From Candidatus Anderseniibacteriota bacterium (GTDB lineage Bacteria > Patescibacteriota > JAUYIX01): a DNA stretch of 64,000 nucleotides. The stretch lies in assembly GCA_046350855.1 (NCBI GenBank), contig JAXLZM010000001.1, positions 217,420-281,419 on the forward strand, written 5' to 3'. Under the pieces are notes generated by a model. The model searched no databases, was not told the DNA's origin, and saw nothing but the letters and a program-made list of their open reading frames with translations. A program made the position numbers and the translations under genes. How positions within the stretch are numbered: the first letter of the stretch is position 1; each line of letters starts with the position of its first letter. Positions 52,230-64,000 of this stretch are shown one piece after another.

Positions 52230-52673
52230 CTACTTTTTACCTTGGAACTCCTGCTGGAGTTTGTGCTTGTGACGCAGGTGCGCTTTGAGGTGGGCCTTGG
52301 GGCCGTGTGGACCGTGCTTACGATGCAAGAGCGGCAAAGGAATTTTATTGTCCTTAGCCCAGATCTTGAGCTCTTGGTGCTTTTGCTTGAGGGCCTGGTG
52401 ACGCTCTTTAGGGGTCTTATCCTTGAGACTTTCTCTAAAAGCCTGCAGTTCCTTAAGTTTGGCCAAGATCAGATCACGCTGCTCGGCGGTCAATTTGCCG
52501 GCTTCAACCGCTTGCTGCAGTCGATCAGCGATCTTTTTTTGATGCACCGCTTTGAGTGCACCGACCTGCCCGTCGACGGGTTTGGGGCCAGCGGCCGAGG
52601 CCAGGCCAACGAGTGATCCCGCTCCGAGTACGGCCAAAAGACCGCCCGCGAGCAACGACTTTTTGAACTGCAT
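52230..52673 (-). CDS. LTXXQ-motif periplasmic protein (Spy/CpxP/ZraP family) with a His-rich C-terminal tail
   Basis: Signal peptide, then ...LTAEQRDLILAKLKE..., then the tail HRKHGPHGPKAHLKAHLRHKHK. Confidence 0.55.
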   Translation of the reverse strand: MQFKKSLLAGGLLAVLGAGSLVGLASAAGPKPVDGQVGALKAVHQKKIADRLQQAVEAGKLTAEQRDLILAKLKELQAFRESLKDKTPKERHQALKQKHQELKIWAKDNKIPLPLLHRKHGPHGPKAHLKAHLRHKHKLQQEFQGKK

Positions 52674-53683: not shown

Positions 53684-53926
53684 ATGGCGACTAACAAAGT
53701 TCGGCATGATACGGCCATTTTGGCTCTCATCCTCAACATCCTTGTGTTACCGGGGATAGGCACACTTGTTGCTGGCCGAACCACCGAAGGCGTACTTCAA
53801 CTAACCTTGTTTTTGGTCTCGATCCCCTTGTGCCTAATCTTGATTGGGTTCCCCCTCATGCTGGCCATGTGGATTTGGTCGCTCGTCACGGGTATCGACA
53901 TTCTCAACAAAGCGCAGCCCAATTAA
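53684..53926 (+). CDS. small TM2/PspC-like membrane protein
   Basis: An 80-aa ORF with two TM helices. Confidence 0.4.
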   Translation: MATNKVRHDTAILALILNILVLPGIGTLVAGRTTEGVLQLTLFLVSIPLCLILIGFPLMLAMWIWSLVTGIDILNKAQPN

Positions 53927-54513
53927 GCCGCGGTCGTCGCAGAGTTTTTTGGTTTTTGTAGCTTACCGACCAGTAGGCTAGCCACGAGCGTTGTAATCAG
54001 GGTCACCCCTAGACCGAGAGCGAGCATGGTCATGAGATCCGCCTCGCGCGCCTCGATCTCTTTGAGCGAACGGCCCACGACGATGTAGCCCTCGGCTTTA
54101 CCGTCCTGAGTTTTGTAGTGCTCGATCACCAGCGCCTCACGTACACCGTCCTGGGGCTGCCAGGTGATGCGATTTTGCTGGCCGTTGTCGGTCTCGTGTA
54201 AAGCGCCACTCGGGACGATCGCGGGGTTGTTGTTAAGGGTGACGGTACTGGCCATGACCTTGCCGTCTTTGTCATACAAAATCACAAAGGGAGCGCTGGT
54301 CTCGGTCAAATCAAGTTTTTTACCGGCATCCAGGGCGGTTGGATCTTGTCCAGCGGCAAGATCTCTCGCCAGCTCTTGCACGATCTGGACCTGTGGATCA
54401 TCGGCGCTACGTCGGTACACTTGCTGAACGGTTGCGTAGAGCAAGCCCGTTACAAGGATGATCGCTAGGCCTAGCGGAATCCAGGCTAAAAAACGTGAGA
54501 CAAAATAGTGCAT
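53923..54513 (-). CDS. hypothetical membrane-anchored protein
   Basis: A 196-aa ORF with N- and C-terminal TM segments. Confidence 0.4.
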   Translation of the reverse strand: MHYFVSRFLAWIPLGLAIILVTGLLYATVQQVYRRSADDPQVQIVQELARDLAAGQDPTALDAGKKLDLTETSAPFVILYDKDGKVMASTVTLNNNPAIVPSGALHETDNGQQNRITWQPQDGVREALVIEHYKTQDGKAEGYIVVGRSLKEIEAREADLMTMLALGLGVTLITTLVASLLVGKLQKPKNSATTAA

Positions 54514-54554: not shown

Positions 54555-55670
54555 TTATTTGCTCTTAGTGCTTTTAGCAGCCTTAGCTTTGCCCTTGCGA
54601 TTGGGGTGCTTGCGGTAGTGACGGACGATCAAGAAGAGTGCCACCAGGAGGATGATTGCGATCAGACTGGCGCTGTAAATCGAGAGCGCCACGGCATCTG
54701 GCATGACAAACATACTGACAACCGGTCCGCGGAGTGCGAGTTCGTCCTTGTCATCCCAGGGCTTCATGGTGACGAGGGGCTCGCCAAAGTCGGCACCCTC
54801 AAGACGATCGATTTGCGAGCTATCCGTGACTTTGTCCCCCTTAGCGGTGTAGCCCGAGCCATCGATCTCAACCAGCGAACTGATTTTAACCCAGCCACCC
54901 CAGCGCGGACGCGCGATCGGGAAGTTCATAGTGAGAGCTTCGCCGGAGAGCGACAAAAATTGTCCGCCATCTTTGTGCAACCCGTTGCCAAAGAGCGCAC
55001 GGCGAGTTACGACATTGGCAACCAGATCCTCTGAGACGTTGCCACCATTGGTGACGGTCAGCGAGACGAGCGGCTCGGCTCCGGTGCGATCAATATGCAT
55101 GTCGGTAATCTCGAGACTGCGCTTGACGTCACCGGGAACGGTAATACTTACGCGGATTCCAGAGCGTGTCGTAATGTGGATCCCAGCACTGGTGCTTTGG
55201 GCTTTGCTCTCTTCTACTACAACGCAAGCCTCATGTTCACCCACGGTCGCATTATCGGGCACTTTAATCGTAAATGGCACCAAGACGGTACTGTGCGAGG
55301 CAACCGTGACCTCGCGCTTGTCACCAAAATCGAGCCAAGCTCCGACGGAATCGGGTTTTTCGCTACGCTGTGCGCAGGTAAAGGCTCCATCACTCGAGAC
55401 GGCCGAGTCGGTCGCGTAGACCAGGACTTTACGATCGGTATCACTACTATTGATGACGTTGACGCCCTCACCAACCGAGGCACCCGGGCTCAACGTGTGA
55501 ATAAAAATCGATTCCGTGTGCGGATCATTTTTGAGCGGATAGGCCGGCCGCGCACCGAGTCCTGCTACGGCTTGGCTGGCTTGCGGTACCAAAATTCCTA
55601 CCAACCCAAGTATAGCCACCAACCCAATGATAGCGTGGCGAGTGCGGCGGACTGATGCGGTTAAAACCAT
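54555..55670 (-). CDS. cell-surface protein, DUF916 + DUF3324 (CscA-like) with a C-terminal TM anchor and basic tail
   Basis: Signal peptide. It ends ...IAIILLVALFLIVRHYRKHPNRKGKAKAAKSTKSK. Confidence 0.5.
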   Translation of the reverse strand: MVLTASVRRTRHAIIGLVAILGLVGILVPQASQAVAGLGARPAYPLKNDPHTESIFIHTLSPGASVGEGVNVINSSDTDRKVLVYATDSAVSSDGAFTCAQRSEKPDSVGAWLDFGDKREVTVASHSTVLVPFTIKVPDNATVGEHEACVVVEESKAQSTSAGIHITTRSGIRVSITVPGDVKRSLEITDMHIDRTGAEPLVSLTVTNGGNVSEDLVANVVTRRALFGNGLHKDGGQFLSLSGEALTMNFPIARPRWGGWVKISSLVEIDGSGYTAKGDKVTDSSQIDRLEGADFGEPLVTMKPWDDKDELALRGPVVSMFVMPDAVALSIYSASLIAIILLVALFLIVRHYRKHPNRKGKAKAAKSTKSK

Positions 55671-55690
55671 GTTCCTCCCTTAGCTAAAAC

Positions 55691-56392
55691 TTACAGAGCA
55701 ACTACCGATAAAACCATGTTCAGGGCGTAGCCGCTGGCGGCTGGTTGTTCACCCGGAACTTTTTGACTAATCGAAACGCCGCGGAAACGCCAGTCACCAA
55801 TATCGTTGGAACCCGCCGCAGCCGAGAGGAGCGTCACGCTGTCGGTCGTATCTTGTACAAAGGGGGTCGAACTACCCTTAGAAATACCAGTGGTGGCACA
55901 GCTGGCGCATTGACCGGTCAAGAGAGTACCGCCGCTTGGATCAACCGTCATTTGACCACCCTTGCTATCGGCATCCGCACCATCGGTACAACCGGAACCA
56001 CTCGAGTCATTGAAGTCATAGGTATTGCTACCCGAAGTCCAGAGGTCGGTCGTGGCAGAGGCGGCGAGTGACAAGGTCCAACCGTTATCGGCGCCGTCTG
56101 GGTTTTGTACGTAGATGTTTTCGGTCGAAGTTCCAAAGCTACCGGTTGAGGTCTGACAACTAAAGGAGAAGGTCAACGTACTCATTGGGACCGAGGGGCT
56201 CGCTACCGAAGCATAGCTGCCGTCCACAATGTCCGTGGTGAGCGTCCCGGCGTTAATGTTTTGCGTAAACGATGAGGTGTTGCTAGCTAACACATAGACC
56301 AAACCGCCGACCGTCGCAGCCACCGCAATGATAGCAACGACAATAGCGACGAGCGCTCCGGCCGATGAGGCAACCTTTTGTGGGAATGTCAT
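55691..56392 (-). CDS. WxL-domain surface protein
   Basis: Signal-anchor N-terminus. ...GWTLSL... and C-terminal ...DWRF... WxL-type motifs. The C-terminus is paralogous to 62485..63834, and both end ...VVAL. Confidence 0.5.
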   Translation of the reverse strand: MTFPQKVASSAGALVAIVVAIIAVAATVGGLVYVLASNTSSFTQNINAGTLTTDIVDGSYASVASPSVPMSTLTFSFSCQTSTGSFGTSTENIYVQNPDGADNGWTLSLAASATTDLWTSGSNTYDFNDSSGSGCTDGADADSKGGQMTVDPSGGTLLTGQCASCATTGISKGSSTPFVQDTTDSVTLLSAAAGSNDIGDWRFRGVSISQKVPGEQPAASGYALNMVLSVVAL

Positions 56393-56507
56393 ACGCGGCT
56401 AAGTATCTAATTTTTTAGTCGGGCCGTCAATGACTTTTGCACATGTACCTCGCACAGGTGGCTTTGCCTTGGTACTCGCAGAGCGTACACTGGGAGGACT
56501 AAAGGAT

Positions 56508-57635
56508 ATGGGACGTTGGTTCGTCAACACAATTAGTATCGTCGCCTCACTGGGTGTCATCACCGCGGTTGTCGTTACGGTCGCTTCCAGTCGAGAGAAC
56601 CGTTCGAACGCCCAAATCTCCGTAAACAACACCCCCAACAATACGGGCAATACGCTCAACAACGTTAGCAATAACGCGACCAATTCTGTCGTGCCACCCT
56701 CGCCGTCACCCAGTCCGTCACCAAGCCCAAGTCCATCCCCGTCTCCATCTCCGTCACCCTCACCTACCCCTACCCCAACAAATAACACGACCGGCACACC
56801 GAGCTCTGGCACTGGTACGGGTTCAACCGGAGGAACCACGCAGCCGAGCAGTGGTACAACGGGCACAACTACCCAGCCGACAACACAACCAAGCTCAAGC
56901 ACACAAACTAAGCCGACCGTAACCACTAATGAGGCGGTGCGTACTACCAAGGCCACTACCACGGCCGGGGTACCGGTCACGACCTCGGTCTCGGGCGATC
57001 CGACCTTACTTGCGGCGCTCCTCGATAACAAAGAGCCGGTTGAAATTCGCCTTGAGATCGTCAATGGCCGGCCGTTCTACCATATCCTGCGCAAAATCGG
57101 ACCGGATGAGGACCAAGCCGCTGCACGCGAAGAAGTGATCGCAGGCGATCCTGATAAACCGGTCTCGATCGTGATCGAGCGCGGCAGTGGAGACCAAGAG
57201 CGCAGCATTACCATTAGCTTTACCGTGACGAGTGACGCCGCCGGTCTCTACCAGATCAACATACGTGTTCCAAACTTTAGCGGCTCGCTACCGCCCATCA
57301 CGACGAGTCTGCCGCTCAAAGTAAACGAGGCAGCTGCAACCGTCTCCGCCATTGCCAACGATGTTGAAAACGACATCACAGACATAGATATGGCCTGGGT
57401 TGAACAAGGTCTACAAAACGCCAAACTTAATCTCAAAACCCTCGAGCTGCGGCAAGATCCTGCAAAGGGCGAGGTGGTGATCTTGTATGGTACCGGCTTC
57501 AGCCAAAAAAAGCTTTTTGGTCTGATTCCGGTCCGACATCGAACACAGGTGACGATCGAGACCCAAGGAGCTCAGCGCTTACTTGAATTTGAAGGCTTTT
57601 TCTTCCGCCGTATCCTCAAGTATTTCCTCTGGTAG
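56508..57635 (+). CDS. membrane-anchored protein with N/T-rich and (SP)12 linker and a C-terminal globular domain
   Basis: A GGGAGG RBS lies 12 nt upstream of the ATG at 56508, MGRWFVNTISIVASLGVITAVVVTVASS... A (SP)12 tract sits at about 56700-56770. Confidence 0.5.
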   Translation: MGRWFVNTISIVASLGVITAVVVTVASSRENRSNAQISVNNTPNNTGNTLNNVSNNATNSVVPPSPSPSPSPSPSPSPSPSPSPSPTPTPTNNTTGTPSSGTGTGSTGGTTQPSSGTTGTTTQPTTQPSSSTQTKPTVTTNEAVRTTKATTTAGVPVTTSVSGDPTLLAALLDNKEPVEIRLEIVNGRPFYHILRKIGPDEDQAAAREEVIAGDPDKPVSIVIERGSGDQERSITISFTVTSDAAGLYQINIRVPNFSGSLPPITTSLPLKVNEAAATVSAIANDVENDITDIDMAWVEQGLQNAKLNLKTLELRQDPAKGEVVILYGTGFSQKKLFGLIPVRHRTQVTIETQGAQRLLEFEGFFFRRILKYFLW

Positions 57636-57689
57636 CATCGGTCGTTATCCAGTTGGCGCCGCTATTGGGCGCGTGGCATACTGTCCGGT

Positions 57690-60293
57690 ATGAAACACTA
57701 CTTCTCAAAAGGCGGGGCGGTTCTTTGTGCCGTCCTCAGTATTAGTTTTTATTTTGTCGCTTTGACGCCACGGGCGCAGGCGGCCCAATCAACCAGTTCA
57801 GCCGCGGGATATGTGGTACCCGGCATGAGTCGCGAGGCAAGCACGCAGCTCCTAGAGCGCCACGCTGCAGCTGAGGCTGCGAGTAGCGCGGGGGTCACTA
57901 GTAGCTCCGTCAGTGGTACAGGCTCGGTAGGAGCCTCGGCGGTACCGACACCGGATGTGACCGAGAAAAAGATTGCGGCCGCCTCGACCTACACACAAAT
58001 GAGTCAGCAAGCCACGGACAGTTCTGGTCGCGTCTTTGTAGTTTGGCAGGATACGCGCAACGGCGGCTCGTCGATTTTGTTCAGCCGGACCCTCGATCAC
58101 GGCCAAACCTGGAGCGCTATCAAACGCCTCGATCGTAGCTCGGGTGCAGGCACGACCCAATTTGTTGAGATCGCGGCGGATGATTTTTGTAACGTCTACG
58201 TTGGCTGGAACGACTTTAGGAACGTCGCCGACGGACAACCGTTTGTAGCGGTCTCACATGATTGTGGTGACACCTGGAGTGCTGCAAAGAGACTCTCAGC
58301 GGCTTCGGTTGCTCAGGACAGCTCCTTTGATATGGCGGCCCGTAACGGCGGACAGATCTTTGTGGTTTGGGGCGACTCACGCAATGACGACGTCGGTGGG
58401 TTACTGCGTACCGAGATCTACAGCATCGTCTCTAACGACTTTGGTGCGACTTGGCAGACCGAGAAAAAAATCAGTGACCAAGCGCCAACCACGACGGATG
58501 ATTATGGCCCGATCACAACTTGGGCCCAAGATGGCGGATTAGTTGTGGCGTGGCTGTCTAACCGCAATGGCCCAGGCTACGACCTCTATGAGGCGCGTTC
58601 GGCCAATGGTGGTTCGACCTGGTCGGCCGATGCTCGGCTCAATACCGAGGCAGCCGGCACGGTTGCCGTACCTGCCTATGGACTCTGCGCGGATCGGGAG
58701 CATGTGTTTTTGAGCTACACAATCGGCACGGGTTCACCTTTTGATGTCAAAGCACGCACCTCGCATGACTTTGGCAAAACTTTTGCAGCACCTGTGACGA
58801 TTAACGGTACTCTCGACACACTCGGCAACGGCCAAGCGCTTGACTGTGCGGGTGACCGTGCCGTGATCGCCTTTGATGGTGGAACTGCCGGCAGCATGCT
58901 GGACGATGTTCGTGTCAGTACCACCGAGGATGGCGGCGCGACCTGGAGTTCTGCCAAAAAAGTGGATGTGGATGACGCAAGTAACAGCGGTAATAATCCG
59001 GTCGACATCACAACCAGCATCACGGCCCAGGGTGACGTAGTGGTCGGGTTTACGGATGGTCGCGGTGGAACAACACACGGCTACTTTAACTACTCACCGG
59101 ATGGTGGCACCTTGTGGCTCTCGCACGAAAAACGCTTTAACAGCTTTACGGGCTCACACACGGTCTTGTTAAGCCGCGAGTTGGGCGTCTTGCTCTCAAC
59201 GCCAGAAGATGGCGCTGGGGCCGGTAGTGACCTGGGTGCACACGCCTGGATTACCTACGATGATAACCGTGCGGATGCGCCAGGTATGTACTCGGCTCGC
59301 ATCGACTTTGACCACGCCAGCACACCGCTTGTGCGTCTCTCCGGGGATAATCGCGTCGAGACCGCTTTGGAGATTAGTCAGGATAGTTTTCCCACCGATG
59401 GCAGTGCCACTGCGGTAGTGGTTGCCACGAGCAAGAACTTTCCGGATGGTCTCGCAGGTGGCCCTTTGAGTGTTATGGCTGGTGGTCCACTCCTGCTGAC
59501 CCCAGGCGACAGTCTCGATGCTGCTGTAGCGGCGGAGATTACACGCCTCTTTGATGGACAAGACGATACCGGTACGGACGTCTACATCTTGGGTGGCGAT
59601 GCCGCGATTGATCCCTCGGTAGAGGCCGCTATCGCTGCACTCGATTCTAAGCTCGATATCAAACGCCTCGAGGGGACCGATCGTATCGCGACGGCCCTCG
59701 CGGTTGCGGATGAACTCACGGACTTGCGTGGTACTGGCCCGGTACAGCTGGTTTTGGCTAACAGCCAAAACTTCCCGGATGCCTTGAGCGCCAGCGCGGC
59801 TGCCTCGAGTAGCATCGTGGAGCCCGGACTTATGCCGATCTTACTCAACCCAACCGCCGCACTCGACTCGCGTGTCTCAACCTACTTGAGCGATAACGTC
59901 GGCACGGTCCTGATGGTCAATGTCGTCGGCGGAACTTCGGTCATCTCAGACGCAACCTTTACCACTACGGACGCGATTATCCCGGCCACCCGTTACGGCG
60001 GAGTGAACCGCTACGACACGGCCAACATCTTTAACACGGCTATGTTTACGGGTAGCAAAGCACCCACCTCGATCGGGGTCGCCAGTGGCGAAAAATTCCC
60101 AGATGCGTTAACCGGTGGTGCCCACTCGGGTCGTCTCAATCGCCCACTCGTCTTGGTCAAACAAAACGACGTGCCGGATGAGTCAACCGTCTACGTCGAA
60201 GACAACGCTGCTACCATCGAAGGCGGCCATGTCTACGGCGGAACCTCCGCGGTCTCCGATGCGGTTAAGACTTTTTTGGAGGCGCTCTACTAG
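57690..60293 (+). CDS. secreted BNR/Asp-box beta-propeller protein with three C-terminal CW_binding_2 cell-wall-binding repeats
   Basis: Signal peptide. Seven SxDxGxTW-type repeats (SRTLDHGQTWS, SHDCGDTWS, SNDFGATWQ, SANGGSTWS, SHDFGKTF, TTEDGGATWS, SPDGGTLW). Three repeats of the form ...KNFPDGLAGGPL..., ...QNFPDALSASAAA..., ...GEKFPDALTGGAH... Confidence 0.65.
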   Translation: MKHYFSKGGAVLCAVLSISFYFVALTPRAQAAQSTSSAAGYVVPGMSREASTQLLERHAAAEAASSAGVTSSSVSGTGSVGASAVPTPDVTEKKIAAASTYTQMSQQATDSSGRVFVVWQDTRNGGSSILFSRTLDHGQTWSAIKRLDRSSGAGTTQFVEIAADDFCNVYVGWNDFRNVADGQPFVAVSHDCGDTWSAAKRLSAASVAQDSSFDMAARNGGQIFVVWGDSRNDDVGGLLRTEIYSIVSNDFGATWQTEKKISDQAPTTTDDYGPITTWAQDGGLVVAWLSNRNGPGYDLYEARSANGGSTWSADARLNTEAAGTVAVPAYGLCADREHVFLSYTIGTGSPFDVKARTSHDFGKTFAAPVTINGTLDTLGNGQALDCAGDRAVIAFDGGTAGSMLDDVRVSTTEDGGATWSSAKKVDVDDASNSGNNPVDITTSITAQGDVVVGFTDGRGGTTHGYFNYSPDGGTLWLSHEKRFNSFTGSHTVLLSRELGVLLSTPEDGAGAGSDLGAHAWITYDDNRADAPGMYSARIDFDHASTPLVRLSGDNRVETALEISQDSFPTDGSATAVVVATSKNFPDGLAGGPLSVMAGGPLLLTPGDSLDAAVAAEITRLFDGQDDTGTDVYILGGDAAIDPSVEAAIAALDSKLDIKRLEGTDRIATALAVADELTDLRGTGPVQLVLANSQNFPDALSASAAASSSIVEPGLMPILLNPTAALDSRVSTYLSDNVGTVLMVNVVGGTSVISDATFTTTDAIIPATRYGGVNRYDTANIFNTAMFTGSKAPTSIGVASGEKFPDALTGGAHSGRLNRPLVLVKQNDVPDESTVYVEDNAATIEGGHVYGGTSAVSDAVKTFLEALY

Positions 60294-60311
60294 AGAGCCG
60301 ACGATCTGCTC

Positions 60312-60339
60312 ACGCACGCTGTACGCGTACAGCGTGCGT
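60312..60339. repeat. 28-bp perfect palindrome (acgcacgctgtacgc|gtacagcgtgcgt)
   Basis: Read directly. It lies immediately 3' of the BNR gene and upstream of the canonical terminator. Confidence 0.8.
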
Positions 60340-60354
60340 CAAGCAAACGACTAC

Positions 60355-60382
60355 GGCGGCCTCTCGGCCGCCGTTTTTTTGG
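60355..60382 (+). terminator. intrinsic terminator GGCGGCC-TCTC-GGCCGCC-GTTTTTTTGG
   Basis: A perfect 7-bp GC stem plus T7 run. Confidence 0.7.
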
Positions 60383-60491
60383 CGTTCATTCTTGTAGCAC
60401 TAACCATGGGTTCACAACTGCAAAAAAGGGTTGTGCTCTTATGACAGGGGCCTATACTAAAAATACGTTAACACGATAAAGTGGAGGACTT

Positions 60492-60743
60492 ATGATCTGG
60501 CAAGCAATTATCTTTTTAGTGATCGGTGCTCTAGCTGGTTGGCTAGCAGGCGTAGTCGTGCGAGGGGCTGGCTTTGGACTGCTTGGTAACATCATCGTCG
60601 GTATCATCGGCGCACTGGTCGGTGGCTTTGTCTTTCGCCTGTTTGGGTTCGACCCGACGTATGGATTTATTGGGTCGGTCATTACCGCTACGATCGGCGC
60701 GATTATCGTGCTCGGGATCGTAGTGCTCGTTAAACGCGCATAA
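60492..60743 (+). CDS. GlsB/YeaQ/YmgE family stress-response membrane protein
   Basis: MIWQAIIFLVIGALAGWLAGVVVRGAGFGLLGNIIVGIIGALVGGFVF... A GGAGG RBS and an upstream TTGTGC-N16-TATACT promoter are present. Confidence 0.7.
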   Translation: MIWQAIIFLVIGALAGWLAGVVVRGAGFGLLGNIIVGIIGALVGGFVFRLFGFDPTYGFIGSVITATIGAIIVLGIVVLVKRA

Positions 60744-60811
60744 TGAAGGGCGCAAAAAAGAAACGCTAACGAGCGTTAGCTCATAGGTATTTGCTTAACG
60801 TAGGAGACTTC

Positions 60812-62026
60812 TCAGTCGCCTACGTTAAAGTATTTTTTATTTTTGATCTTGTCGGGGAGGTAGCTTGTGTCGGTGTACATCTGGTAGCCCTTGTGGTAGC
60901 CGAGGTCTTGCATGAGCTTGGTGGGTGCGTTACGCACGGCCAGTGGGATCGGCAGGTTGCCATATTTTTTTACGTCCGCAGCCGCTGCGCCGTAGGCCTC
61001 GTAGGCGCTGCGGTTCTTTTTAGCCCGCGCAAGATAGGCTGTACCGTGAGCTAAATTGATGGCTGCCTCGGGTAAGCCGATGGTCTCAACCGCTCTAAAA
61101 ACTTCGTTTGCCACCACCAAGGCGGTGGGTTGTGCCAAGCCAACGTCCTCGGAGGCAAAGATCACCATTCGACGGGCGATACATTTGGGGTCTTCTCCAG
61201 CATCGATCATACGAGCCAAATAATACAGCGCTGCGTCTGGTTGGCTCGCACGCATACTTTTAATAAAAGCGCTGATGGTGTTGTAGTGTTCGTCCCCTTT
61301 TTTATCAAAACGCAAAAACTTGTTTTGCACAGTATTTTTGAGCGCCGCTACATCGACTTTTTTGTACAGGTTAGCGGCGTTTTCTAGGACGGTGATGGCT
61401 TGGCGGGCATCCCCGTTGGCAAGCTGGATCAGCCACTCTCGGGCGCTTTGCTCGAGCGTGATGCCGGTGCGGGTAATAATCTCTGCCATCTCAGGGCTAG
61501 AGAGCTCGTTGAGAACAAAAACCCGACAGCGTGAGAGCAGTGCGGGGATTACCTCAAAGCTTGGGTTCTCGGTGGTGGCACCAATCAAGACTAGGTCGCC
61601 GCGTTCGACATAGGGGAGCAAAAAATCTTGCTGGGCTTTGTTAAAACGGTGAATTTCATCCAAAAATAGCACTTTGGGACCGTTACGCAGGGTCTGATCC
61701 TCGACGATTTGCTTGATGTCAGCTTTACCGGCTGAGACCGCGGAGAGTTCAAACAGTTTGGCTTTGAGTGAGGCTGCGTAGAGTTTAGCAAGGGTCGTTT
61801 TGCCAACGCCGGGTGGGCCCCACAAAATAAACGAAAAAACATGCCCCTGCTCGATGGCAATGCGTAAGGGTTTATCCGGACCAACTAAGTGCCGTTGGCC
61901 TACAAACTCTGAGAGCTGTGTCGGTCGTATTTTAGAAGCGAGAGGTTCCATAGGACTATTAGCAAAATGCGAGGGATGGTTCCCCCGCACTACCGCTACT
62001 CTATGGGTTTGAACGATAGGTGTCAA
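60812..62026 (-). CDS. rarA: replication-associated recombination protein A (AAA+ ATPase RarA/MgsA)
   Basis: ...LWGPPGVGKTTLAKLYA...LFLDEIHRFNKAQQDFLLPYVERGDLVLIGATTENPSFEV. Confidence 0.8.
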   Translation of the reverse strand: MTPIVQTHRVAVVRGNHPSHFANSPMEPLASKIRPTQLSEFVGQRHLVGPDKPLRIAIEQGHVFSFILWGPPGVGKTTLAKLYAASLKAKLFELSAVSAGKADIKQIVEDQTLRNGPKVLFLDEIHRFNKAQQDFLLPYVERGDLVLIGATTENPSFEVIPALLSRCRVFVLNELSSPEMAEIITRTGITLEQSAREWLIQLANGDARQAITVLENAANLYKKVDVAALKNTVQNKFLRFDKKGDEHYNTISAFIKSMRASQPDAALYYLARMIDAGEDPKCIARRMVIFASEDVGLAQPTALVVANEVFRAVETIGLPEAAINLAHGTAYLARAKKNRSAYEAYGAAAADVKKYGNLPIPLAVRNAPTKLMQDLGYHKGYQMYTDTSYLPDKIKNKKYFNVGD

Positions 62027-62041
62027 AGCACAGACCTCGGC

Positions 62042-62239
62042 TTAGCGACGCGACCGTCGTCTGCGGCGCGGAACTTTTTGTCCCTTACGACGCGCCTCGG
62101 AGAGCGCAATCGCGATAGCTTGCTTGCGAGATTTGACTCGCCCAGCTTTACCTCCACGACCGCTCTTGAGCGTGCCGCGCTTGTACCGATGTAGAGCGCG
62201 TTTGACGTTGCGCTGAGAGACTTTGCCGTAGCGTGCCAT
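62042..62239 (-). CDS. small basic protein (Lys/Arg-rich, function unknown)
   Basis: MARYGKVSQRNVKRALHRYKRGTLKSGRGGKAGRVKSRKQAIAIALSEARRKGQKVPRRRRRSRR. Confidence 0.4.
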   Translation of the reverse strand: MARYGKVSQRNVKRALHRYKRGTLKSGRGGKAGRVKSRKQAIAIALSEARRKGQKVPRRRRRSRR

Positions 62240-62301
62240 ACGTTTAAAAATTAACTGATTAGCCCCCTTAGTCTAACAGCCAGCTGTGATACAGTTGTGC
62301 T

Positions 62302-62447
62302 ATGTACTGGACTATTGGCGGAGTCGCCGTTGCACTCCTTATCCTGTTTGTGATCCTCAAACTGAGCGCACGGCTAGCCAAGATCTTTCTCTTTTTGCTC
62401 GTCTTAGCACTCTTGGCGGGTGCCGGTTGGTATTACTTTTTGCGCTA
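62302..62447 (+). CDS. small (48 aa) two-helix membrane peptide
   Basis: MYWTIGGVAVALLILFVILKLSARLAKIFLFLLVLALLAGAGWYYFLR. It is below the size cutoff of the ORF track. Confidence 0.3.
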
Positions 62448-62484
62448 ACGAGGGCCTTACGCACTAGAATTGCGCGCTAGCGCG

Positions 62485-64000
62485 CTAAAGCGCTACAACC
62501 GTCGCAACCATGTCGATGCTGTAGGAGTCGGCCGGCTGGTCCTCGGGGATTTGCTGTGACACATCGATGCCCTGGATATCCCAATGACACTGGATCTCGG
62601 CCGTTCCGCCTGCATTAGTGAGAGCGATCGAGTCGGTCACGCCCTCATTAAAGGCATCGGCAGAACCTCCGGTCAAACCGGTGGTGGTGCAACCAGAACC
62701 CGCAGTAATACTTTGGCCACTTGGATCCAGACTCATTTGTCCACCGTACGTATCCGCATCGCCATTGTCGGAGCAACCGCTGGCCGTGGGGTCATTAAAG
62801 TCAAAGGCGTTACCAGCATCAGTCCACGCGTCGGTCGGGCCGCCGCTGGGTTCAACCGAGAGCGACCAGGACGGGTTGGCCGTGGTGTTTGTCACCCGAA
62901 TTTTTTGAGTTGAGACCCCAAACGTTCCGGTGGTGTTTTGGCAATTAAACTGAACTGTCCCAGCCGAAAGTGCCACGGAGGGGCTTGGCACCGATACACC
63001 GGAGCCATCCACTATGTCGACCGTCAGGATTCCATCGTTAGTGGCAATCTCAGGAATAACGCCGTAGCTGCTCAACAACCCTCCAGTTTTATCGACCACC
63101 CTAAAACAATACGAGACGGACGGCGCGGCCGAATAATCCACCAGCGCAAAGTCCCAAAGTCCGTCCTGCGAGGAGTCGACCTGACTTTGCGAGGTAGTAA
63201 AGCTGTTTTCTTCTTCGTAGGTTTGGTAGACGATCTCATCGGCGCCATGCGTTGGATCAGCCGCGTTGAGCGTCGCAGCATCGCCATCCGTAGGTGTCGG
63301 GTTATCGGCAAAACGGATATCACCAGTAACCGTATTGACAGCGCCATAGCTTTCGCCACTAAAACCAGTATCACAGGTGCCCGACCGCTCGGCGACTTGC
63401 AGATCAAAGTCCACAGCATTTGCGCCGAGTGTGTCATTATCGACGTGTAAGAGCAGACGCAGTCTAAAGGGTGTCCCTTGTGTGGGTGCTGTCGCGGGCG
63501 TGTCTTGCGCCGCGAGGGCCGACCCTACATCGGTCGAGTCATCGTTAGCAAACCAGCGGTAGGCTGATTGCGTTTCGGTTGGACCAAACCAGTTAGTCGT
63601 GCCACTACCCTTGATCGAGTTAGCTGGGTTGAGCGGCACGGTCACGCCCGAGGAGTTGTCCGTCACAGTGCTATCTGAGACATCCAGATAATCGCCTGTA
63701 AACGTGGATGAACCGCTAAACTCCAAACCACTTGCCGTCCCAGGTGAACTCGAGACGATATTGATGCGATCAGTGCTATCTAATCCATCGAGGGTAAGGC
63801 TGTTAGCGATCGTAATCGTAGTGCTGACCGGCATGGTGAGGATACTGTCGGTCGCGTTATTAGTGCTCTCGGTTTTGGAGAGCGTATAAAAGGTCGTCGC
63901 AGGCGTTGAGATAGTTTGGTTGACCCCGTCTAAAATGATCGAGCCGTTGTTGTGGGTAAAAGTCGTGCCTGAGTCACGGCTGATGTTCTCCCCAATGGTC
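62485..64000 (-). CDS. large WxL-domain surface protein, N-terminus beyond the window end
   Basis: The ORF stays open upstream of the M at 63834, with no stop through 64000. The C-terminal ~230 aa are paralogous to 55691..56392 (SWSLSV..., ...HWDIQGIDVSQQIPEDQPADSYSIDMVATVVAL). Confidence 0.55.
   Translation of the reverse strand, partial: TIGENISRDSGTTFTHNNGSIILDGVNQTISTPATTFYTLSKTESTNNATDSILTMPVSTTITIANSLTLDGLDSTDRINIVSSSPGTASGLEFSGSSTFTGDYLDVSDSTVTDNSSGVTVPLNPANSIKGSGTTNWFGPTETQSAYRWFANDDSTDVGSALAAQDTPATAPTQGTPFRLRLLLHVDNDTLGANAVDFDLQVAERSGTCDTGFSGESYGAVNTVTGDIRFADNPTPTDGDAATLNAADPTHGADEIVYQTYEEENSFTTSQSQVDSSQDGLWDFALVDYSAAPSVSYCFRVVDKTGGLLSSYGVIPEIATNDGILTVDIVDGSGVSVPSPSVALSAGTVQFNCQNTTGTFGVSTQKIRVTNTTANPSWSLSVEPSGGPTDAWTDAGNAFDFNDPTASGCSDNGDADTYGGQMSLDPSGQSITAGSGCTTTGLTGGSADAFNEGVTDSIALTNAGGTAEIQCHWDIQGIDVSQQIPEDQPADSYSIDMVATVVAL

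What the first reader, a model, noticed from the sequence alone, without database searches (positions are those of the whole stretch)
54555..64000. Csc-like cell-surface cluster (DUF916/DUF3324 anchor plus WxL proteins) beside a BNR-propeller/CW_binding_2 protein, in a high-GC genome
Gene 54555..55670 has the signal peptide, C-terminal TM and basic tail typical of CscA-type proteins. Genes 55691..56392 and 62485..64000 carry paired W-x-L motifs and nearly identical C-termini ending VVAL, so they are paralogs. Between them sit a TM-anchored Ser/Pro/Thr-rich stalk protein and an 867-aa seven-blade Asp-box propeller with three CW_binding_2 repeats. WxL/Csc complexes are best known from low-GC Lactobacillales, where they serve as surface glycan-utilisation machines. 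Seeing the full module in a ~59% GC organism, next to a sialidase-like propeller, suggests horizontal acquisition or a broader distribution.
Basis: partly seen in the sequence, partly recalled or inferred. Interest (0 to 1): 0.55.

Follow-up and report, generated by a model that had tools for sequence, protein, structure and literature searches.

The report
WxL-like surface-display module in Patescibacteria
An ultra-small "candidate phyla radiation" bacterium carries a three-part cell-surface gene set: a membrane anchor clearly related to the WxL-interacting proteins of lactobacilli and enterococci, plus a small and a large secreted partner; this set is conserved across the whole radiation, so it is a candidate for how these bacteria display adhesins.

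Summary
The 371-aa protein is a real WxLIP/CscA homolog. Its Pfam DUF916 score is just under threshold, but all 25 relatives hit that model, and a profile comparison with canonical WxLIPs gives 99.4% probability (E 1.8e-21). The DUF3324 part is not detectable on its own.

The 233-aa protein and the truncated large protein share a 188-aa C-terminal domain at 44% identity. None of the 32 family members scanned matches Pfam WxL. Profile comparison with WxL is collinear but weak (P about 0.004). WxL identity is therefore likely but unproven.

The domain family is large (700 clusters at 50% identity), has no Pfam match or functional name, and every named member is patescibacterial. The domain is always C-terminal and comes in small and large forms. 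In 51 species genomes, small-then-WxLIP adjacency holds in 42. A large form follows in 31 of 34 loci with enough sequence.

This is an old, lineage-wide module and not a recent transfer. The BNR/CW_binding_2 protein and the stalk protein are unrelated neighbours, and the propeller shows no sialidase signature. Best reading: a membrane-anchored display complex for variable adhesins.

The parts
54555..55670 (-). WxLIP/CscA-like anchor, 371 aa: signal peptide, DUF916-type Ig-like domain (res ~40-182), second beta-rich domain (~183-282), 25-aa insertion (~283-310), C-terminal TM helix, short basic tail. It lacks the LysM tail that most patescibacterial homologs carry.
   Evidence: Pfam PF06030 E 6.7e-5, 23.4 bits, below GA. 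All 25 aligned homologs hit PF06030, best 5e-11. hhalign against four canonical WxLIPs gives 99.4%, E 1.8e-21, over 332 columns. Domain 1 alone gives 98.6%; domain 2 alone gives P 0.048.
55691..56392 (-). 'Small' partner, 233 aa: signal peptide (likely cleaved after VLA|S) plus one ~190-aa all-beta domain. Features: GWTLSL motif, Asp-rich YDFND...DADSKGGQMTVDP loop, four Cys. Sits 20 bp upstream of the anchor gene.
   Evidence: 723 homologs at 57-73% identity with no Pfam domain. 700 representative clusters. AF2 pLDDT 90.6. 0 of 32 hit Pfam WxL. Weak collinear hhalign to WxL.
62485..64000 (-). 'Large' partner, at least 504 aa, with its 5' end beyond the window. The N-terminal part has no known domain. 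The same ~188-aa domain sits at the extreme C-terminus.
   Evidence: Translation open to the window edge. BLASTP to the small protein gives 44% identity, E 3e-42. Domain HMM E 7e-75. No Pfam hit.
56402..56430 (-). Promoter-like site TTGACG-17-GATACT, just upstream of the small gene.
   Evidence: Consensus scan. Site counts do not exceed shuffles, so this is weak evidence only.
53923..54513 (-). 196-aa two-TM protein, 41 bp downstream of the anchor gene and followed by a terminator-like hairpin (53932-53913). Possibly co-transcribed, but not a conserved member of the module.
   Evidence: Absent from all 51 related loci.
56430..57635 (+). Neighbour, not part of the conserved module. N-terminally TM-anchored protein with an (SP)n/Thr-rich stalk and a ~200-aa C-terminal globular part. 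The true start is probably ATG 56508, which has a GGAGGA ribosome-binding site 9 nt upstream.
   Evidence: No Pfam domain. Absent from 51 related loci.
57690..60293 (+). Neighbour, not part of the conserved module. 867-aa secreted Asp-box beta-propeller followed by three CW_binding_2 repeats.
   Evidence: Pfam. PDB sequence matches cover only the CWB2 part: Cwp8 6e-20, plus SlpA and Cwp6. Six strict Asp-boxes and no RIP motif. Absent from 51 related loci.

Best explanation
This is the Patescibacteria version of the WxL/Csc cell-surface display system.

Proposed mechanism:
- The 371-aa WxLIP-like protein is exported and stays tethered in the cell's own membrane by its C-terminal helix.
- Its DUF916-type Ig-like domain holds the secreted 'small' protein and the C-terminal domain of the 'large' protein non-covalently at the surface. 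As proposed for WxLIP-WxL, it probably does this by donating a beta-strand that completes the partner's beta-sandwich.
- The variable N-terminal part of the large protein is thereby displayed outward, as an adhesin or enzyme.

Shown:
- Homology of the anchor to WxLIP.
- Paralogy of the two partner proteins.
- The strictly C-terminal position of the partner domain.
- Its small and large architectures.
- The conserved small-anchor-large gene order across Patescibacteria.

Inferred:
- That the partner domain is a divergent WxL domain.
- That it binds the anchor.
- That the complex serves attachment.
For: - Anchor homology: hhalign 99.4%, E 1.8e-21, from signal peptide to TM. 25 of 25 relatives hit PF06030.
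- Partner family: the domain is always C-terminal in the 150 listed representatives. It occurs in proteins of about 220-240 aa and in proteins of 330-1961 aa.
- Some large forms carry SdiA-regulated, DUF2341, Laminin_G_3 or Ig domains at the N-terminus.
- Synteny: small-then-anchor adjacency in 42 of 51 species genomes. A large form lies downstream in 31 of 34 loci with enough sequence. The same holds in Kerfeld- and Nomurabacteria loci.
- The published definition and model of WxL clusters match this layout: small WxL, large WxL, and WxLIP with a strand inserted into WxL.
- Canonical plasmid clusters also show the small-WxL-then-WxLIP order.
- The end-to-end collinear hhalign of the partner domain with 97 canonical WxL proteins gives P 0.003-0.004.
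- Reciprocal HMM cross-searches give 13 and 18 hits at E<0.1, against 0-3 for reversed or shuffled controls.
- The confident AF2 model is an all-beta sandwich. Its best, weak PDB matches are strand-complemented pilins.
Against: - Pfam WxL matches none of the 32 family members scanned.
- hhalign probability is only 4-9%, and block-15 shuffles reach the real score in 20 of 100 trials.
- The solved 'WxL domain surface protein' 9i25 is not among the top 50 Foldseek PDB matches. Whether it is in that library is unknown.
- The second W-x-L motif is not conserved in register.
- The DUF3324-equivalent domain is not detectable alone (P 0.048).
- In this window the large gene lies 6 kb upstream, separated by four unrelated genes, and not directly downstream of the anchor.
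- No binding or localisation data exist.
Confidence: 0.6

Rival explanations
1. Donor-strand fibre. The highly conserved small protein polymerises by strand exchange into a surface filament. The large proteins are tip or decorating adhesins that join through the same C-terminal domain. The two-Ig-domain anchor acts as a membrane-bound chaperone or base, analogous to chaperone-usher pili but in a monoderm.
For: - The best PDB fold matches are strand-complemented pilins: FimA 9iug (prob 0.99, E 0.022), CfaB, CsuA/B and CanA.
- The small protein is unusually conserved: 57-73% identity across lineages, against 30-46% for the anchor.
- Its mature N-terminal segment SxFxQxIxxGxLxxDIV is nearly invariant.
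- The layout of an adhesin with a C-terminal subunit-like domain parallels FimH/FimA (established knowledge).
- WxLIP is described as two perpendicular Ig-like domains that donate a strand.
Against: - The fold matches are weak: no hit at E<1e-3, and TM 0.3-0.5.
- There is no evidence of polymerisation.
- AF2 places the N-terminal strand confidently within the monomer.
- No usher-like or sortase gene lies in the module.
Confidence: 0.13
2. DUF916 anchor with an unrelated, lineage-specific partner. The shared domain is not a WxL homolog but an independent beta-sandwich, for example a Ca2+-dependent cell-wall or glycan-binding module, that has taken the partner position next to a DUF916 protein. 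The resemblance to WxL clusters would then be convergent.
For: - No Pfam WxL hit, and profile probability under 10%.
- The domain has features absent from canonical WxL: four conserved Cys, an Asp-rich DFND...DxDxxGGQ loop, and about 30 residues after the second Trp.
- DUF916 proteins outside Firmicutes sit next to non-WxL genes, for example RTX-repeat proteins in Streptomyces.
Against: - The alignment with WxL motifs is collinear (GxLxID; GWxL; GxW...P...Y...last strand).
- Cross-search signal is above the controls.
- The Clavibacter DUF916-adjacent small protein bridges weakly to WxL (E 3.7e-4).
- The small/large and C-terminal architecture is identical to WxL clusters.
Confidence: 0.2
3. 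One glycan-processing surface machine spanning the whole 9.4-kb region. The BNR propeller/CW_binding_2 protein, the stalk protein and the WxL-like proteins would act together on sialic-acid-like glycans.
For: - The genes are physically adjacent, and all encode secreted or anchored proteins.
- Envelope-glycan genes lie elsewhere in the window.
Against: - The BNR/CWB2 and stalk genes are absent from all 51 related loci.
- They are transcribed divergently from the small gene.
- mgsA and a GlsB/YeaQ-type gene interrupt the region.
- There is no RIP motif and no sequence match to solved sialidases.
Confidence: 0.04

Closest known systems
WxL / Csc gene clusters of Lactobacillales and Bacillales (CscA = WxLIP with DUF916+DUF3324+TM; CscB/CscC = small and large WxL proteins; Siezen 2006 PMC1534035; Hassan & Williamson PMC9772566, PMC10599100)
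   Same: - The anchor is homologous over its full length.
- A small partner (signal peptide plus domain only) and a large partner (variable N-terminus plus the domain at the extreme C-terminus).
- The small gene sits directly upstream of the anchor gene.
- The partner domain is all-beta, about 190 aa, with a GWxL first motif.
   Different: - The host is Patescibacteria, not Firmicutes.
- The partner domain is not recognised by PF13731.
- The second WxL motif is replaced.
- The small and large forms carry the same domain type, whereas canonical small and large WxL domains differ in motif spacing.
- Extra Cys residues and an Asp-rich loop are present.
- There is no LPXTG (CscD) gene.
- Most patescibacterial anchors add a LysM domain after the TM helix.
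- The usual order is small-anchor-large.
DUF916-containing loci of Actinomycetota and Deinococcota (e.g. Clavibacter phaseoli pCCh, Streptomyces goshikiensis plasmid)
   Same: - A DUF916 protein with a C-terminal TM in a non-Firmicute, high-GC organism.
- The adjacent Clavibacter small secreted protein also escapes Pfam WxL, yet looks WxL-like (E 3.7e-4 to a WxL HMM).
   Different: - No detectable match between these partners and the patescibacterial domain.
- The Streptomyces neighbours are RTX-repeat proteins.
- No small-plus-large pair was seen.
Chaperone-usher and other donor-strand pilins (FimA/FimH, CfaB, CsuA/B, CanA)
   Same: - Weak fold resemblance of the small protein.
- The same logic of a subunit-only protein plus an adhesin with a C-terminal subunit domain.
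- A partner with two Ig-like domains that is proposed to donate a strand.
   Different: - No sequence similarity.
- TM-scores are only 0.3-0.5.
- No usher.
- The cell is a monoderm.
- Polymerisation is untested.
Clostridial CW_binding_2 surface proteins (C. difficile Cwp8, Cwp6, SlpA HMW subunit). This comparison applies to the neighbouring 867-aa gene only.
   Same: Three tandem CWB2 repeats (Pfam E 3.9e-44; Cwp8 6e-20).
   Different: - The functional domain is an N-terminal seven-repeat Asp-box propeller.
- The organism is a patescibacterium.
- The gene is not linked to the WxL-like module in other genomes.

Membership tests
WxL gene cluster (Hassan & Williamson definition) | At least one WxLIP: DUF916/PGBD domain | tested here: met
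   The window protein scores 23.4 bits, below GA 27.3. However, 25 of 25 family members hit PF06030 (best 5e-11). hhalign of domain 1 against canonical WxLIP gives 98.6%, E 5e-16.
WxL gene cluster (Hassan & Williamson definition) | WxLIP second domain DUF3324/HBD | tested here: inconclusive
   0 of 25 hit PF11797. Domain 2 alone gives P 0.048. In the full-length alignment a beta-rich domain of matching size sits collinear between PGBD and the TM.
WxL gene cluster (Hassan & Williamson definition) | WxLIP C-terminal transmembrane helix | tested here: met
   Direct reading of residues ~325-346 followed by a basic tail. Aligned with the canonical TM.
WxL gene cluster (Hassan & Williamson definition) | Two WxL-domain proteins (PF13731) within four genes of the WxLIP | tested here: inconclusive
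   Two paralogous partner proteins are present, one adjacent and one exactly four ORFs away. Neither they nor the other 31 members scanned hit PF13731. hhalign to WxL gives P 0.003-0.006 at 4-9% probability. The cross-search signal is above the controls.
WxL gene cluster (Hassan & Williamson definition) | One small protein (signal peptide plus domain only) and one large protein (extra N-terminal domains, domain at the C-terminal end) | tested here: met
   The same holds family-wide in the 150 listed representatives.
WxL domain (PF13731) | Two conserved Trp-x-Leu motifs on adjacent strands | tested here: not met
   The first motif is present (WTL, WSL). The second Trp is followed by x-F or x-I in this window. 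In the hhalign register, the canonical second WxL aligns to L/V-x-V/I in the last strand. Strand adjacency could not be inspected.
WxL domain (PF13731) | Same three-dimensional fold as canonical WxL | not testable with these tools
WxL gene cluster | Accessory LPXTG protein (CscD); frequent, not obligatory | tested here: not met
   No LPXTG-type C-terminal sorting signal in any window ORF.
CW_binding_2 (Cwp-type) cell-wall proteins: 867-aa neighbour | Three tandem CWB2 repeats | tested here: met
   PF04122 E 3.9e-44 with three stretches. Cwp8, SlpA and Cwp6 match.
GH33 sialidase: 867-aa neighbour | Asp-box propeller with an RIP motif / catalytic Arg triad | tested here: not met
   Asp-boxes are present, six strict, and BNR_2 scores above GA. 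There is no R[ILV]P motif. No solved sialidase matches the propeller by sequence. Each blade repeats a W-x-D-x-R-N motif instead. The Arg triad was not checked structurally.

The most novel reading that the evidence does not exclude
The small protein, one of the most conserved secreted proteins of Patescibacteria, is the subunit of a previously unrecognised strand-exchange surface fibre or lattice. The two-Ig-domain WxLIP-like protein acts as its membrane-bound chaperone or base, and the large proteins are interchangeable tip adhesins. If so, Firmicute WxL clusters and this system would together form a monoderm counterpart of chaperone-usher pili, and in episymbiotic bacteria a prime candidate for host attachment.
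Probability: 0.12. Interest if true: 0.85.

Novelty: new variant of a known kind. Interest (0 to 1): 0.6.

Why it matters
Patescibacteria make up a large share of bacterial diversity. The cultivated ones live attached to host cells, yet few of their surface structures other than type IV pili have been tied to attachment. This work links a large, functionally unannotated protein family to a system studied experimentally in Firmicutes. The family has 700 clusters at 50% identity, and its members carry no Pfam match and no functional name. The partner is a WxLIP-type anchor found in a conserved three-gene operon.

The link gives a concrete, testable hypothesis for how variable adhesins are displayed on these cells. 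It also shows that WxL/WxLIP-type systems are not confined to gut Firmicutes, and that current WxL and DUF3324 models miss their distant relatives. No paper in the searchable library connects WxL or DUF916 with this radiation.

Tried and rejected
- The first AF2 run used 32 close homologs and gave pLDDT 58, which was unusable. A 45-sequence diverse alignment fixed this.
- The Foldseek search against viral structures was uninformative.
- The look-up of encoding contigs could not find the window's own contig. The 5' end of the large gene could not be recovered.
- The PDB sequence search with the domain profile found nothing, even at E 10.
- hhalign against a single Paenibacillus WxL was non-significant.
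- The block-15 shuffle control did not separate real from null. I do not claim sequence-level proof of WxL homology.
The closer alignment A1 was used instead, which biases the 51 loci toward the 'small' subfamily.
- A sialidase reading of the propeller was considered and rejected.
- Recent horizontal transfer was considered and rejected.
- A functional link to the stalk, BNR/CWB2 and 196-aa genes was considered and rejected.
Full report
**Source and composition.** The 233-aa and 371-aa proteins are 100% identical to the adjacent NCBI entries U0517_01495 and U0517_01490 of a Candidatus Andersenbacteria MAG. This organism belongs to the Parcubacteria group of Patescibacteria. GC is 0.549 for the finding and 0.554 for the whole window. 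The individual cluster genes range from 0.548 to 0.556. The '~59% GC' figure is therefore wrong, and there is no compositional sign of recent acquisition.

**Observation.**
- The ORFs are at the stated coordinates.
- The 371-aa protein has a signal peptide, a C-terminal TM helix and a basic tail.
- The 233-aa protein and the gene at 62485..>64000 share a 188-aa C-terminal domain: 44% identity, E 3e-42, ending SVVAL and TVVAL. The second gene stays open to the window edge.
- No other copy of this domain exists in the window.
- Between the two partner genes lie four others. These are a TM-anchored (SP)n/Thr-rich protein, an 867-aa protein with BNR_2 and three CW_binding_2 repeats, an 83-aa Transgly_assoc protein, and an MgsA-type AAA+ ATPase.

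- Pfam gives only a sub-threshold DUF916/WxLIP_PGBD hit for the 371-aa protein (E 6.7e-5; 23.4 bits against a 27.3-bit cut-off).
- Pfam gives no DUF3324 hit and no WxL hit for either partner. NCBIfam adds nothing.
I therefore tested each assignment at the family level.

**The anchor is a WxLIP homolog.**
- Its 41 database relatives are all patescibacterial where a source names the organism. NCBI names some of them 'DUF916 domain-containing'.
- All 25 aligned members hit PF06030 at E<=1 (best 5e-11). None hits PF11797.
- I retrieved canonical clusters from Paenibacillus, Enterococcus, Lactiplantibacillus and Bacillus plasmids. These are annotated 'DUF916 and DUF3324' next to 'WxL domain-containing' genes and were checked against Pfam.
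- hhalign of the patescibacterial family against four canonical WxLIPs gives 99.4% probability, E 1.8e-21, over 332 columns from signal peptide to TM.
- Domain 1 alone gives 98.6% (E 5e-16). Domain 2 alone is not significant (P 0.048).
- Conclusion: DUF916 and the overall WxLIP architecture are established. DUF3324 identity is not.

**The partner domain.**
- The 233-aa protein has 723 relatives at 57-73% identity. None has a Pfam domain, and every name a source gives is 'hypothetical protein'. The named records come from Kerfeld-, Peregrini-, Nomura-, Falkow- and Andersenbacteria.
- A full HMMER scan of 1.84 billion cluster representatives finds 700 clusters at E<=0.001.
- In the 150 listed, the domain always ends at or within about 15 residues of the C-terminus.
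- The proteins fall into two forms. The small form is about 220-240 aa, a signal peptide plus the domain. The large form is 330-1961 aa.
- Some large forms carry SdiA-regulated, DUF2341, Laminin_G_3 or Ig-like domains at the N-terminus. Most have nothing recognisable.
- With a diverse alignment, AF2 gives a confident all-beta model (pLDDT 90.6).
- Conserved features are GW[TS][LV]xxA, YDFND, a DxDxxGGQMTxDP loop, four Cys, and W-x-L-T-G...SQxIPxxQ...Y...last strand.

**Is the partner domain a WxL domain?**

Evidence against:
- 0 of 32 members match PF13731.
- The profile matches no PDB sequence. A canonical WxL profile, by contrast, finds 9i25 'WxL domain surface protein'.
- 9i25 is not among the top 50 Foldseek PDB matches of the model. 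Those matches are weak hits to strand-complemented pilins: FimA, CfaB, CsuA/B and CanA.

Evidence for:
- hhalign of a 145-sequence domain profile against 97 canonical WxL proteins (all PF13731-positive) gives a collinear end-to-end alignment. It pairs GxLxVDIV with GPLTIDxV and IxVxN..GWTLxIA with VQVTDxRG..GWTLxV. It also pairs GGQMT with KGAxL and the C-terminal GxW...IP...Y...last strand with GTW...VP...Y..TLTWTL (P 0.003-0.004; 4-8% probability).
- Single-column and 8-column shuffles never reach the real score (0 of 100 each). 15-column block shuffles reach it in 20 of 100 trials.
- Reciprocal HMM cross-searches give 13 and 18 hits at E<0.1, against 0-3 in reversed or shuffled controls.
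- The Clavibacter small protein next to a DUF916 gene also fails Pfam WxL, yet it scores E 3.7e-4 against my WxL HMM. This shows that non-Firmicute partners are systematically missed.

I rate WxL homology at roughly 70%, unproven.

**Synteny.**
- In Kerfeldbacteria and Nomurabacteria loci the order is small, then a LysM/DUF916-like TM protein, then a large protein of 877 or 828 aa with the same C-terminal domain.
- I examined 51 loci from GTDB species-representative genomes.
- The small gene is directly followed by the anchor gene on the same strand in 42.
- The other nine are loci whose ORFs fragment under code 11, or loci cut by a contig end. The fragmented ones are labelled Gracilibacteria or Peribacteria, which is consistent with an alternative genetic code (my inference).
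- A large form lies downstream in 31 of the 34 loci with at least 2.5 kb of sequence beyond the anchor.
- The stalk protein, the BNR/CWB2 protein, the 196-aa protein and the 284-aa protein occur in none of the 51 loci.
- The window therefore holds a rearranged version. The small-anchor pair is intact (20-bp gap), but the large paralog lies 6 kb upstream, behind four unrelated genes.

**Comparison with the literature.**
- Hassan & Williamson define a WxL cluster as at least one WxLIP plus two WxL proteins within four genes, typically one small and one large.
- They describe WxLIP as two perpendicular Ig-like domains plus a TM helix. AlphaFold predicts that a hairpin of its DUF916 domain inserts as a strand to complete the WxL sandwich.
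- They report the distribution as almost entirely Lactobacillales and Bacillales.
- The patescibacterial module reproduces this logic. The weak pilin-like fold matches fit a sandwich that is completed by a donated strand.
- No paper in the library mentions WxL or DUF916 together with Patescibacteria.
- DUF916 itself is already annotated in Actinomycetota and Deinococcota plasmids. A high-GC host is therefore not in itself new.

**Mechanism (inference).** The anchor sits in the cell's own membrane. It holds the small protein and the C-terminal domain of the large protein at the surface by strand complementation, and so presents the variable N-terminus of the large protein. Confidence is 0.6. 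The rivals are a strand-exchange fibre (0.13), a non-homologous lineage-specific partner (0.2), and a single glycan machine that includes the propeller (0.04).

**The neighbours.**
- The propeller has six strict Asp-boxes plus SPDGGTLW at a spacing of about 55 residues. It has a repeated W-x-D-x-R-N motif and no RIP motif.
- PDB sequence matches cover only its CWB2 part.
- It is best read as a wall-anchored binding propeller, not a demonstrated sialidase.
- The stalk gene probably starts at ATG 56508, behind a GGAGGA site.
- A promoter-like site precedes the small gene, and a terminator-like hairpin follows the 196-aa gene. Neither class of site exceeds the number found in shuffles.

**Verdict.** The finding is real. 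The HGT and sialidase-neighbour ideas are wrong. The added value is that this is a conserved, functionally unannotated, lineage-wide variant of the WxL/WxLIP system.

Noticed in passing
Homologs of window 54555-55670 (alignment A5; e.g. L001:10784-12124, L003:7982-9136): In 21 of 25 patescibacterial WxLIP-like proteins a LysM domain follows the C-terminal TM helix and its RKRK stop-transfer residues. By the positive-inside rule it would then face the cytoplasm, which is odd for a peptidoglycan-binding module. The window's copy and P0150 lack it and end in a short basic tail.
   Followed up: partly
window 54555-55670, residues ~283-310: The window's anchor has a 25-residue insertion (SSQIDRLEGADFGEPLVTMKPWDDKDE) between the second domain and the TM helix. 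The insertion is absent from all 24 aligned homologs.
   Followed up: no
window ~8300-30000: A run of envelope-glycan genes on the minus strand: GT2+DUF2142, a GH42/GH14-like protein, YfhO, a WsaF-like GT1, WbsX and Wzy_C. This may be the source of the wall polymer that the CW_binding_2 protein would bind.
   Followed up: partly
L015, L022, L034 (Kerfeldbacteria, Microgenomates): Some genomes carry two consecutive small-then-anchor pairs before the large gene. Others (L026, L044, L051) have two tandem small genes.
   Followed up: no
L018, L020, L029, L031, L042, L046, L052, L053, L055: The module's ORFs are broken into pieces under genetic code 11 in loci labelled Gracilibacteria or Peribacteria. 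This is consistent with UGA recoding (code 25). They were not retranslated.
   Followed up: no
L013, L017, L026, L036, L039, L054, L056, L062: Eight of the 51 related loci come from MAGs whose record titles say Gammaproteobacteria, Pseudomonadales or Ectothiorhodospiraceae. Yet they carry the same operon at 53-64% identity, the same as between patescibacterial lineages. These are probably mislabelled bins, but this was not verified.
   Followed up: no
window 55691-56392 and family alignments A1/A3: The partner domain has four conserved cysteines (C79, C135, C162, C165) and an Asp-rich loop (YDFND...GCTDGxDxDxxGGQMTxDP) that resembles a Ca2+-binding site. Neither feature is seen in canonical WxL sequences.
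   Followed up: no
window 56430-56508: The annotated-length start of the stalk gene (ATG 56430) overlaps the promoter-like site of the divergent small gene. ATG 56508, with GGAGGA 9 nt upstream, is the more plausible start and gives a 375-aa product.
   Followed up: partly
L010:4173-4799 (Clavibacter phaseoli pCCh): A 208-aa 'hypothetical protein' directly upstream of a DUF916 gene. It has a GAGWYVLGSASDF motif and a WxL-like last strand (AGDYSSTITLSLFE) but no Pfam WxL hit. Actinobacterial WxL-like partners seem to be under-annotated too.
   Followed up: partly
window 52230-52673 (-): A 147-aa secreted protein with a Lys/His-rich helical C-terminus (…HRKHGPHGPKAHLKAHLRHKHK…). No function was assigned.
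   Followed up: no
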